Shown here piece by piece: positions 41,990 through 42,122 of a DNA stretch of 64,000 nt. The DNA lies in the IMG/VR virus record IMGVR_UViG_3300020057_000027, positions 32,001 to 96,000 of that record, one strand, 5' to 3'. A program made the position numbers and the translations under genes. Source of the stretch: a virus. Each line of letters begins with the position of its first letter. Position 1 is the first letter of the stretch. A model generated the notes under the pieces. That model was not told where the DNA came from, searched no databases, and saw only the letters and a list, made by a program, of their open reading frames with translations.

Positions 41990-42079
41990 ATGATAGAAAT
42001 TCGTTCTAACCTATTACCGCTCCCACTCTTATATCCCTCGCGGGATTATAAAACACTCTTGCGTCCATTGGACGCATAA
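41990..42079 (+). CDS. Leu/Pro/Tyr-rich leader peptide MIEIRSNLLPLPLLYPSRDYKTLLRPLDA
   Basis: Leaderless ORF; 14 of 29 codons are L/P/Y, matching the downstream tRNAs. Confidence 0.7.
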   Translation: MIEIRSNLLPLPLLYPSRDYKTLLRPLDA

Positions 42080-42122
42080 TCACACATTCAAATATTAGTA
42101 GAAGAAAAGATAATTAAATTAT

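What the first reader, a model, noticed from the sequence alone, without database searches (positions are those of the whole stretch)
41990..42122. Architecture of leader 1: leaderless ORF, two hairpins, C-rich and G-poor tract
Seen: perfect TTGACA-17-TATAAT with the ATG 7 nt after the -10, so the transcript is predicted to be leaderless. The L/P/Y run (codons 8-16) is followed by hairpin atccc-tcgc-gggat and then by tgcgtcc-att-ggacgca abutting the TAA. No U-tract follows. Inference: this is not a classical intrinsic attenuator; Rho-dependent termination (C-rich rut-like sequence) or control of precursor processing is more likely.
Basis: partly seen in the sequence, partly recalled or inferred. 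Interest (0 to 1): 0.75.

Follow-up and report, generated by a model that had tools for sequence, protein, structure and literature searches.

The report
Leaderless codon-matched leader before phage tRNAs
An uncultured T4-like phage puts a tiny gene, written in leucine, proline and tyrosine codons and starting at the first base of its transcript, in front of its Pro, Tyr and Leu tRNA genes; this is probably a sensor that adjusts tRNA output to decoding speed, but it has no ordinary transcription stop signal.

Summary
A perfect TTGACA-17-TATAAT promoter puts the A of an ATG at the predicted +1. A 29-codon ORF carries a 9/9 Leu/Pro/Tyr run, followed by two hairpins. The tract is C-rich and G-poor, and no U-tract follows.

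Three lineages keep the leaderless geometry, the LLPLPLLYP core, hairpin A and a covarying hairpin B. A G-free CAUCA-type tract and the motif AATA-N3-GTAGAAG lie 10-18 nt before tRNA-Pro.

A second leader (MIKFLS..., 16 of 17 Ser/Thr/Cys/Gly) heads the Gly/Thr/Cys/Ser tRNAs in four lineages. It has the same layout and a third-codon-position substitution bias.

No lineage has an intrinsic terminator or a conserved alternative pairing in leader 1.

Best reading: a translated, leaderless sensor of decoding supply, coupled to tRNA output by something other than intrinsic termination. Shielding of a Rho loading site by a stalled ribosome is favoured. Control of precursor processing is the main rival. 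Neither was tested.

I found no paper on leader-peptide control of tRNA genes. This scan has already noted codon-matched leaders before phage tRNA blocks in at least 29 other genomes; the follow-up reports I saw describe a switchable terminator. This is a terminator-less, leaderless variant.

The parts
41955..41983 (+). Sigma-70-type promoter P1: TTGACA, 17 nt, TATAAT
   Evidence: 12/12 consensus match. Conserved as TTGACA-17-TATAAT in L013 and TTGACA-17-TATACT in L012.
41990..42079 (+). Leader 1 ORF, 29 codons, with its ATG at the predicted +1 (leaderless). The conserved core is the first 16-19 codons.
   Evidence: Homologues are MIKIVSYLLPLPLLYPLPG* (L013) and MINIVQQSLPLTLLYPLPG* (L012), both 6 nt after the -10.
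42011..42037 (+). Run of 9 Leu/Pro/Tyr codons (codons 8-16), matching the amino acids of the four tRNAs downstream
   Evidence: One of two 9/9 L/P/Y windows in six frames of the genome. Synonymous CTC/CTG/CTA and CCG/CCT changes among lineages.
42033..42046 (+). Hairpin A (ATCCC-TCGC-GGGAT; extendable to 42030-42049 with a bulge)
   Evidence: The stem TATCCC/GGGATA is kept in L012 and L013 with different 5-nt loops, and their stop codon lies in its 3' arm. There are no compensatory changes, and the stem overlaps coding sequence.
42047..42059 (+). Conserved spacer TATAAA(A)C(A)CTCTTG between the two hairpins
   Evidence: Conserved at nucleotide level, although it is read in a different frame (window) or lies outside the ORF (relatives).
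42060..42076 (+). Hairpin B (TGCGTCC-ATT-GGACGCA)
   Evidence: Same position but different sequence in relatives: GGCC-TTCG-GGCC in L013 and TGGC-CTCAGT-GCCA in L012. One pair is kept through changes on both sides.
42077..42097 (+). G-free, C-containing tract (TAATCACACATTCAAATATTA), a candidate Rho loading site
   Evidence: 0 G in the 18 nt between the stop codon and the motif. The same G-poor CAUCA-type tract is present in the other leaders.
42091..42104 (+). Motif AATA-N3-GTAGAAG
   Evidence: GTAGAAG is invariant in all 7 leader copies (leader 1 in three lineages, leader 2 in four), 10-18 nt before the first tRNA. Function unknown.
42105..42122 (+). A/U-rich spacer before tRNA-Pro
   Evidence: Its length varies: 18, 12 and 10 nt in the three lineages.
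42123..42459 (+). tRNA block 1: Pro(UGG), Tyr(GUA), Leu(UAA), Leu(CAA)
   Evidence: ARAGORN and Rfam. Relatives carry an extra Leu(UAG).
43507..43589 (+). Parallel unit, leader 2: late-promoter-like TAAATA, 5 nt, then the ORF MIKFLSITSSSTCTSTGSTGCCL*
   Evidence: Conserved in four lineages, two of them with a full TATAAATA box. Differences by codon position are 13/18/51.
43621..43634 (+). The same AATA-N3-GTAGAAG motif in leader 2, 18 nt before tRNA-Gly
43653..44053 (+). tRNA block 2: Gly(UCC), Gly(GCC), Thr(UGU), Cys(GCA), Ser(UGA)
   Evidence: The Cys tRNA at 43891-43963 is found by Rfam only; ARAGORN calls it Cys(GCA) in L012.

Best explanation
Leader 1 is a translated, leaderless mini-ORF. 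It reports how fast ribosomes decode Leu, Pro and Tyr codons and adjusts the output of the Pro/Tyr/Leu/Leu tRNA genes behind it.

Proposed sequence of events:
1. Host RNA polymerase starts at the A of the AUG, and a 70S ribosome loads on the 5' end.
2. If the matching charged tRNAs are scarce, the ribosome stalls in codons 8-16.
3. If they are plentiful, it runs to the stop codon and leaves.

The link to tRNA output is not an intrinsic terminator. The mechanism I favour is shielding of a Rho loading site. The pyrimidine-rich codon run and the G-free CAUCA tract, separated by the two hairpins, would together form the loading site. A stalled ribosome would cover the run and deny Rho enough naked RNA, so the polymerase reaches the tRNAs. 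A vacated leader would let Rho load and stop transcription in the A/U-rich zone around GTAGAAG or early in the tRNAs. The result would be negative feedback on tRNA supply.

Shown: the anatomy, its conservation, the codon-to-tRNA match and the absence of a terminator.
Inferred: translation, stalling, the direction of the response and any role of Rho.

My odds: sensor coupled to tRNA output, about 0.75. Rho as the coupling, given that it is a sensor, about 0.45.
For: Codon-to-tRNA match
- The amino acids of the run (L, P, Y) are exactly those of the tRNAs downstream.
- The second leader's run (S, T, C, G) is exactly the set of its tRNAs.
- Such runs are almost unique in six frames of the genome.

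Conservation
- Leader 1 is found in three lineages and leader 2 in four. All have the ATG at the canonical +1 of their promoter: 6 nt after the sigma-70 -10, or 5 nt after TAAATA.
- Leader 2 indels are in frame. Ser switches between TCC, TCA and AGC. Differences by codon position are 13/18/51, with 35 synonymous and 23 non-synonymous codon differences.
- In leader 1 the run shows synonymous Leu and Pro changes, while codons 2-7 change freely.

Leaderless starts
- Long ORFs of 80-234 aa begin 5-6 nt after sigma-70-like -10 boxes, and others begin 5 nt after TAAATA. The spacing histograms peak there.

No terminator, and Rho-like composition
- No terminator-like site in leader 1 of any lineage.
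- C/G ratio from ATG to motif is 1.67-2.27 in six leaders. Leader 1 is in the top 0.25% of + strand windows for C minus G. The untranslated tract after hairpin B is G-free or nearly so.

Precedent
- Ribosomes stalled on upstream ORFs are known to shield Rho loading sites (tnaC, speFL, cruR), and hisL may use Rho in part (review PMC12360218).
Against: - There are no transcript or ribosome data, and the +1 is predicted only.
- The host is unknown, so the presence of Rho and the efficiency of leaderless translation are unknown.
- Leader 1 alone shows no clear third-position bias (15/12/18). It is known from only three lineages.
- Part of its C-richness is an automatic result of Leu/Pro/Tyr codons.
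- The hairpin A stem never varies, so it carries no covariation evidence and is confounded with coding.
- The ORF end differs between lineages. A 1-nt indel moves the stop from hairpin A to just after hairpin B.
- Three Leu codons of the run (CTA, CTC, CTC) are not read by this phage's own Leu tRNAs. Relatives have the matching Leu(UAG).
- A ribosome stalled in the run leaves the CAUCA tract exposed, so shielding is only partial.
- The Glu and Asp mini-ORFs are purine-rich and cannot work through a C-rich Rho site.
Confidence: 0.55

Rival explanations
1. Processing control. The mini-ORF is a sensor, but ribosome position decides how the 5' leader folds, and therefore how well RNase III, E or P release the first tRNA or how stable the precursor is. 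The GTAGAAG region next to the tRNA would pair with the first codons of the ORF to close the leader into a compact domain. A ribosome on those codons would prevent this.
For: - AATA-N3-GTAGAAG is the most conserved non-coding element and always lies 10-18 nt before the first tRNA.
- In leader 2, RNAalifold predicts a 16-bp helix between nt 2-17 (including the UG of the AUG) and GGGTAGAAGTTT...GATCA in all four lineages. 95% of cells are paired, against about 45% when the partner is slid.
- The same type of pairing appears in the minimum-energy folds of leader 1 in the window and L013.
- The Glu mini-ORF stops 3-11 nt before tRNA-Glu, and the Asp mini-ORF runs into tRNA-Asp. That leaves room only for a folding or processing effect.
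- E. coli RNase III takes part in the maturation of T4 tRNAs (PMC4810235).
Against: - The long-range helix has no compensatory change; all variation is one-sided or absent.
- It is A/U- and G.U-rich and closes a loop of about 100 nt.
- It is not predicted for leader 1 of L012.
- A search for a partner of the motif gave no consistent site.
- No cleavage data exist.
Confidence: 0.2
2. Plain precursor leader. The RNA upstream of tRNA-Pro is an ordinary 5' leader with stabilising or processing hairpins. The ORF is not translated, or its translation has no consequence, and the codon match has no regulatory meaning.
For: - A 19-codon open frame is not rare in 35% G+C DNA, roughly 1 in 4 by my own estimate.
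- Leader 1 shows no third-position bias.
- The whole-leader folds of the relatives are no better than shuffles (z -0.2 and -0.5).
- One related lineage (L009, L025) lacks the whole leader-plus-tRNA cassette.
- T4's own 94-nt tRNA leader has no AUG at all.
Against: - Two independent leaders each match exactly the amino-acid set of their own tRNA block.
- Both place the ATG at +1 of two different promoter types in every lineage.
- Leader 2 evolves like a coding sequence.
Confidence: 0.13
3. Classical attenuation after all. A non-canonical intrinsic terminator, either hairpin B without a U-tract or a stem ending at GTAGAAG followed by U5 in leader 2, is switched by ribosome position.
For: - GTAGAAG is followed by TTTTT in all four copies of leader 2.
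- Hairpin B is G+C-rich and conserved as a structure.
- The follow-up reports on other phages that I saw describe switchable terminators (unchecked notes).
Against: - There is no U-run after hairpin A or B in any lineage, and none after GTAGAAG in leader 1.
- The only stem that could precede the U5 of leader 2 is long-range and weak.
- No conserved mutually exclusive pairing appeared in folds with the ribosome footprint masked.
Confidence: 0.05
4. The peptides themselves are the product, for example a small hydrophobic or Cys/Ser/Thr-rich modified peptide, and their position next to tRNA genes is incidental.
For: Leader 2 is Ser/Thr/Cys/Gly-rich, like some modified-peptide cores (my own knowledge). 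The N-terminal Met-Ile is conserved.
Against: - No modification genes were seen nearby.
- Composition is conserved rather than sequence.
- Two unrelated compositions each mirror the adjacent tRNAs.
- The C-terminus of leader 1 differs between lineages through a frameshift.
Confidence: 0.03

Closest known systems
Leader-peptide transcription attenuators of amino-acid operons (trpL, hisL, leuL, thrL, pheL, ilvL; also pheM before pheST)
   Same: A short ORF at the 5' end has a run of regulatory codons at about codons 8-16. A stop codon follows a few codons later inside a hairpin. Multivalent runs occur, as in thrL and ilvL. The expected logic is that slow decoding gives more downstream expression.
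   Different: The regulated genes are tRNA genes, not biosynthetic or synthetase genes. There is no hairpin-plus-U-tract terminator and no conserved antiterminator/terminator alternative. The ORF is leaderless rather than led by a Shine-Dalgarno site. The element is phage-encoded.
Upstream-ORF-dependent Rho attenuators (tnaC, speFL, cruR, mgtL, corL; review PMC12360218)
   Same: An upstream ORF sits next to or within C-rich, G-poor RNA, and there is no intrinsic terminator. In tnaC, speFL and cruR a stalled ribosome shields the Rho loading site. In cruR that site lies inside the upstream ORF, as proposed here.
   Different: Those systems sense a small molecule or ion through an arrest peptide or a riboswitch. 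Here the signal would be supply of several tRNAs read through a codon run. Rho dependence is untested here.
Leaderless polycysteine short ORFs of mycobacteria (bioRxiv 10.1101/834739)
   Same: A leaderless short ORF begins at the 5' AUG of the transcript. A run of codons for one amino acid controls the operon downstream.
   Different: Those control cysteine-related protein genes in a bacterial chromosome. Here the targets are tRNA genes in a T4-like phage, and the run is multivalent.
Codon-matched leader ORFs before tRNA blocks of giant lake phages
   Same: A mini-ORF written in the amino acids of the tRNAs behind it stands at the head of each tRNA block.
   Different: The follow-up reports listed describe a switchable intrinsic terminator. 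Here there is none in any lineage, the ORFs are leaderless, and the phage is a 164-kb T4-like phage with a shared AATA-N3-GTAGAAG motif before the first tRNA.
The T4 tRNA cluster leader
   Same: A T4-like phage with a tRNA cluster transcribed as a precursor behind an untranslated leader containing a hairpin. Host RNase III is involved in T4 tRNA maturation (PMC4810235).
   Different: The 94 nt between trna.2 and tRNA-Gln in T4 contain no AUG and no codon-matched ORF.

Membership tests
Class I leader-peptide transcription attenuators (trpL/hisL type) | Short leader ORF with a run of codons for the sensed amino acid(s) | tested here: met
   9/9 L/P/Y at codons 8-16, conserved in three lineages.
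Class I leader-peptide transcription attenuators (trpL/hisL type) | Intrinsic terminator (G+C-rich hairpin plus U-tract) between the leader ORF and the regulated genes | tested here: not met
   No terminator-like site on the + strand in leader 1 of the window, L013 or L012. Reading the sequence shows no U-run after either hairpin.
Class I leader-peptide transcription attenuators (trpL/hisL type) | Mutually exclusive antiterminator and terminator pairings selected by ribosome position | tested here: not met
   Folds with the ribosome footprint masked at codons 8, 12, 16 and at the stop gave no alternative helix shared by the lineages. The consensus fold holds only hairpins A and B.
Class I leader-peptide transcription attenuators (trpL/hisL type) | Regulated genes make or charge the sensed amino acid | tested here: not met
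   The downstream genes are tRNA-Pro, Tyr, Leu and Leu.
Upstream-ORF-dependent Rho attenuators (tnaC/speFL/cruR type) | C-rich, G-poor, weakly structured RNA within or next to the upstream ORF | tested here: met
   C 29 / G 13 in the first 100 nt, top 0.25% of + strand windows. There is a G-free tract after hairpin B, and the same trend in six leaders. The composition is partly explained by codon content.
Upstream-ORF-dependent Rho attenuators (tnaC/speFL/cruR type) | Premature termination that depends on Rho | not testable with these tools
   Needs Term-seq or in vitro transcription with and without Rho or bicyclomycin. The host is unknown.
Leaderless short-ORF attenuators (mycobacterial polyCys type) | ORF starts at the 5' terminal AUG of the transcript | tested here: inconclusive
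   The geometry fits in every lineage, with the A of the ATG as the 7th base after the -10. The phage has long ORFs with the same geometry. No 5' end data exist.
Codon-matched leader attenuators of phage tRNA blocks (earlier notes of this scan) | Mini-ORF enriched in the amino acids of the tRNAs behind it | tested here: met
   Leader 1 is L/P/Y before Pro, Tyr, Leu, Leu. Leader 2 is S/T/C/G before Gly, Gly, Thr, Cys, Ser.
Codon-matched leader attenuators of phage tRNA blocks (earlier notes of this scan) | Switchable intrinsic terminator after the mini-ORF | tested here: not met
Curated RNA leader or riboswitch families (Rfam, including T-box and amino-acid leaders) | Match to a covariance model | tested here: not met
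   No family other than tRNA-type hits touches 41990-42122 or 43518-43652 at E up to 5.

The most novel reading that the evidence does not exclude
T4-like phages carry a previously undescribed regulatory class. Leaderless mini-ORFs, written in the amino acids of the tRNAs behind them, sense shortage of those tRNAs, for example after host tRNA cleavage or codon-usage mismatch. They raise phage tRNA output through Rho shielding or processing control rather than an intrinsic terminator. A dedicated AATA-N3-GTAGAAG element next to the first tRNA would be part of the switch.
Probability: 0.55. Interest if true: 0.85.

Novelty: new variant of a known kind. Interest (0 to 1): 0.7.

Why it matters
Phage tRNA genes are usually treated as constitutive add-ons that fix codon mismatch or replace host tRNAs lost to shut-off or to anticodon nucleases. 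A sensor that reads decoding speed for exactly the tRNAs it controls would mean phages regulate tRNA supply by feedback. It would extend leader-peptide sensing from amino-acid metabolism to tRNA genes.

This terminator-less, leaderless version shows that the idea can be built on more than one output mechanism. It also gives a compact, portable part of about 130 nt that could be tested in E. coli.

Tried and rejected
- Intrinsic terminator: none in the leader of any lineage.
- Minus-strand terminator call at 42076-42060: this is hairpin B read backwards. The tail is weak, no gene needs it, and I dismissed it.
- boxA-like CACTCTTAT inside the run: not conserved (CACTGTTAT and CACTATTAT in relatives). 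The second copy, ACTCTTG, is conserved but a poor boxA match. The boxA comparison rests on my memory.
- Nine-nt complementarity between CCGCTCCCA (42018-42026) and the tRNA-Pro anticodon arm, which dominates the free fold: absent in L013 and L012, so taken as chance.
- Internal late promoter at TATAAA between the hairpins: it does not fit the TAAATA box used before this phage's leaderless late genes.
- A consistent pairing partner for GTAGAAG: none found.
The distances are 10-18 nt.
- More relatives. IMG/VR pattern and protein scans gave only chance hits or a fragment. The JGI metagenome scan gave none with tRNAs. GenBank phages gave no protein match and only tRNA-level DNA matches. Three further homologues of the upstream gene lie in contigs with no tRNA block called next to them.
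- PHROGs gave nothing for four neighbouring proteins.
- T4 itself has no such ORF.

Full report
**1. Setting**

The window is part of a 164,106-bp virus record with terminal repeats, 35% G+C. Contigs carrying homologues of the gene just upstream of leader 1 also carry T4-type genes: gp32, gp59, baseplate and RNase H. All of the phage's tRNA genes lie in one island at 38.7-44.1 kb of the window. In order, the island contains:
- a tmRNA and a tRNA beside it;
- leader 1, then tRNA Pro(UGG), Tyr(GUA), Leu(UAA) and Leu(CAA);
- a small RNA with its own promoter;
- a hammerhead-containing RNA;
- tRNA-Glu, a 59-aa ORF and tRNA-Asp;
- leader 2, then tRNA Gly(UCC), Gly(GCC), Thr(UGU), Cys(GCA) and Ser(UGA).

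**2. Check of the observation**

- TTGACA (41955-41960), 17 nt, TATAAT (41978-41983). This is one of two perfect matches in 10 kb.
- Six bases follow, then the ATG at 41990, so its A is at the canonical +1.
- The ORF 41990-42079 has 29 codons, and codons 8-16 are LLPLPLLYP.
- Hairpin A lies at 42033-42046. Hairpin B lies at 42060-42076 and touches the TAA.
- No + strand terminator-like site lies in the leader.
- The two-hairpin segment folds far better than shuffles: -17.9 kcal/mol, z -5.5.
- The first 100 nt have C 29 / G 13, the top 0.25% of windows on this strand.

**3. Relatives**

Homologues of the gene just upstream led to two short metagenomic contigs with the same island, L012 and L013. 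Near-identical copies of the window's phage also turned up. The 59-aa ORF led to a fourth lineage, L024, whose contig starts after leader 1. One related lineage (L009, L025) has the tmRNA, small RNA, hammerhead and tRNA-Glu, but lacks both leader-plus-tRNA cassettes.

Leader 1 in the three lineages:
- The promoter is kept, and the ATG is always 6 nt after the -10.
- The peptides are MIEIRSNLLPLPLLYP..., MIKIVSYLLPLPLLYPLPG* and MINIVQQSLPLTLLYPLPG*.
- Within the run, Leu changes CTC/CTG/CTA and Pro changes CCG/CCT. Codons 2-7 change amino acids freely.
- In both relatives the stop codon lies in the 3' arm of hairpin A. In the window, a 1-nt shorter loop shifts the frame, so the ORF runs on to the end of hairpin B. 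'Stop abutting hairpin B' is therefore lineage-specific.
- The hairpin A stem is invariant and its loop varies.
- Hairpin B keeps its place but changes sequence (TGCGTCC/GGACGCA, GGCC/GGCC with a UUCG loop, TGGC/GCCA). One pair is kept through changes on both sides.
- Downstream come a G-free C/A/U tract (CAUAAUCACA, CAUCAUACA, AAUCAAUCAUCA) and then AATA-N3-GTAGAAG, 10-18 nt before tRNA-Pro.

**4. The codon match is real**

Leader 2 (43518-43589, MIKFLSITSSSTCTSTGSTGCCL*) has 16 of 17 consecutive residues from S, T, C and G. It stands before Gly, Gly, Thr, Cys and Ser tRNAs.
- In all six frames of the genome, a 9/9 L/P/Y window occurs at two places. A 16/17 S/T/C/G window also occurs at two, the other being a poly-Ser antisense frame.
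- In each leader the set of amino acids in the run equals the set carried by the tRNAs behind it. For sets of three and four amino acids out of twenty, an exact match is about 1 in 1140 and 1 in 4845 if sets were drawn evenly (my arithmetic).
- Leader 2 is conserved in four lineages with in-frame indels and Ser switching between TCC, TCA and AGC. There are 35 synonymous against 23 non-synonymous codon differences, and differences by codon position are 13/18/51. That is the signature of a translated frame.
- Leader 1 alone is less clear (15/12/18). It shares the whole layout with leader 2.
- Relatives carry an extra tRNA-Leu(UAG) that reads the CTN codons of the run. The window lacks it.

Two weaker cases point the same way:
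- A conserved mini-ORF with 2-4 Glu codons (for example MLNGLERLETERA*) ends 3-11 nt before tRNA-Glu in five lineages.
- An Asp-rich frame (MTTDITDDRSHD..., MDDIADDKSHD..., MIDPDDR...) runs into tRNA-Asp in four.

**5. Leaderless starts**

Leader 2 sits 5 nt after TAAATA, which is a full TATAAATA in L012 and L024. From my knowledge of T4 late promoters, that is the spacing expected for a transcript starting at the A of the ATG.

The phage uses this geometry for real genes:
- TTGACA-N17-TAnnnT followed after 5-6 nt by an ATG opens ORFs of 234, 192, 87, 80 and 230 aa.
- TAAATA-N5-ATG opens ORFs of 105, 103, 199, 89 and 53 aa.
- The spacing histograms peak at exactly these distances.

Two promoter classes therefore each place a leader ATG at +1 in every lineage.

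**6. What is not there**

- No hairpin-plus-U-tract in leader 1 of any lineage.
- No alternative helix shared by the lineages when the ribosome footprint is masked at several positions.
- No Rfam family at E up to 5.
- The strongest long-range pairing in the window's free fold, run codons with the tRNA-Pro anticodon arm, is absent from relatives.

**7. What else is there**

All seven leader copies share one layout: a 5' AUGAU, a codon run, one or two hairpins at the 3' end of the ORF, often a further hairpin, a G-poor CAUCA-type tract, AATA-N3-GTAGAAG, then a 10-18 nt spacer and the tRNA.

For leader 2, the consensus fold pairs nt 2-17 with the GTAGAAG region. This gives 16 bp, with 95% of cells paired against about 45% when the partner is slid. 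There is not one compensatory change, so the helix is compatible with the data but unproven.

**8. Mechanism**

The sensor reading is well supported; I put it at about 0.75. The output step is not settled.
- I favour Rho. The leader is unusually C-rich and G-poor on the transcribed strand. The untranslated tract is G-free. T4-type early transcription is known to be Rho-sensitive (my knowledge). Ribosomes stalled on upstream ORFs are known to shield Rho loading sites, including one inside the upstream ORF in cruR (PMC12360218). A ribosome stalled on the run would hide most of the C-rich RNA. A vacated leader would expose about 80 nt of it.
- The main rival is control of folding or processing through the GTAGAAG element. 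This rival also fits the Glu and Asp units, where there is no room for termination. RNase III is known to act on T4 tRNA precursors (PMC4810235).

**9. Novelty**

Four full-text searches found no paper on leader-peptide control of tRNA genes. The nearest published relatives are:
- amino-acid operon attenuators;
- upstream-ORF-dependent Rho attenuators;
- leaderless polycysteine short ORFs of mycobacteria (bioRxiv 10.1101/834739).

This scan has already noted codon-matched leaders before phage tRNA blocks in at least 29 other genomes. The follow-up reports listed describe a switchable terminator (unchecked notes). The case here differs in three ways: it is leaderless, it has no terminator, and it lies in a T4-like phage. 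T4 itself has no such ORF.

**10. Limits**

- There are three lineages for leader 1 and four for leader 2, all from short metagenomic contigs.
- The host is unknown.
- There are no expression data.
- All mechanistic steps beyond the anatomy are inferred.

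Noticed in passing
window 43507-43652: Leader 2 is a TAAATA box, 5 nt, then MIKFLSITSSSTCTSTGSTGCCL*. Two conserved hairpins lie inside the ORF: CCTGTA/TACAGG, which changes to CCTGTC/GACAGG or CCTGTCG/CGACGGG in relatives, and ACAGGC/GCCTGT. The stop codon sits at the 3' edge of the second hairpin. His or Arg codons appear just where the first stem needs a C.
   Followed up: partly
window 43065-43106: The mini-ORF MLNGLERLETERA*, with three Glu codons, ends 7 nt before tRNA-Glu. It is conserved as an open frame with 2-4 Glu codons in L011, L012, L013 and L024. 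Its last codons can pair with the first bases of tRNA-Glu (flagged as terminator-like in L012).
   Followed up: partly
window 43382-43465: An Asp-rich frame (MTTDITDDRSHDIM...) starts just after the 59-aa ORF and runs 43 nt into tRNA-Asp. Relatives have MDDIADDKSHDNM (L024), MIDPDDRNIQNM (L013) and GTG-IEPDDRNIKYM (L012).
   Followed up: partly
window 42091-42104 and 43621-43634: The motif AATA-N3-GTAGAAG is shared by both leaders and is invariant in all relatives. It is followed by TTTTT only in leader 2. GTAGAAG alone occurs 46 times in the genome, but the full motif occurs only here. Function unknown.
   Followed up: partly
whole genome, e.g. window 44060-44096 and 41286-41303: The phage has a class of apparently leaderless genes. 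Long ORFs start 5-6 nt after a sigma-70-type -10 box, or 5 nt after TAAATA. Other genes in relatives use a GGAG ribosome-binding site (L024:1925-1940).
   Followed up: partly
window 42477-42660; L009:5193-5370; L024:63-245: A small RNA of about 140 nt has its own consensus promoter (TTGACA-17-TATACT) and no convincing ORF. It is conserved in at least three further lineages, including one that lacks the leader-plus-tRNA cassettes.
   Followed up: no
window 42747-42840; L024:360-440 and L024:1113-1150; L009:5455-5507: Hammerhead-type cores (CTGATGA ... CGAAAC) lie inside the tRNA island. Rfam gives only a sub-threshold Hammerhead_3 match (24 bits). L024 has a second copy, inserted between tRNA-Asp and leader 2.
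   Followed up: no
window 38748-39216: The phage encodes a tmRNA (tag ANSNDFADYALAA) with a tRNA directly behind it. A tmRNA is also present in L009 and L013. It could rescue ribosomes stalled on the leaders; this is speculation.
   Followed up: no
L019:1-215: A 96%-identical variant of leader 1 has a 6-nt duplication that lengthens the promoter spacer to 23 nt. It also has two changes in hairpin B, one in the loop and one that breaks a stem pair.
   Followed up: no
L024:2261-3598: A 445-aa protein with PolyA_pol, PolyA_pol_RNAbd and HD domains, resembling a CCA-adding enzyme, lies just downstream of the tRNA island in one relative.
   Followed up: no
window 42018-42026 with 42156-42164: CCGCTCCCA in the codon run is a perfect complement of the anticodon and 3' anticodon-stem strand of tRNA-Pro. 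It is not conserved in relatives, so I take it as chance.
   Followed up: yes
window 51648-51674: This is the only other 9/9 L/P/Y window in six frames of the genome (LPLPPLPPP, + strand). I did not examine it.
   Followed up: no
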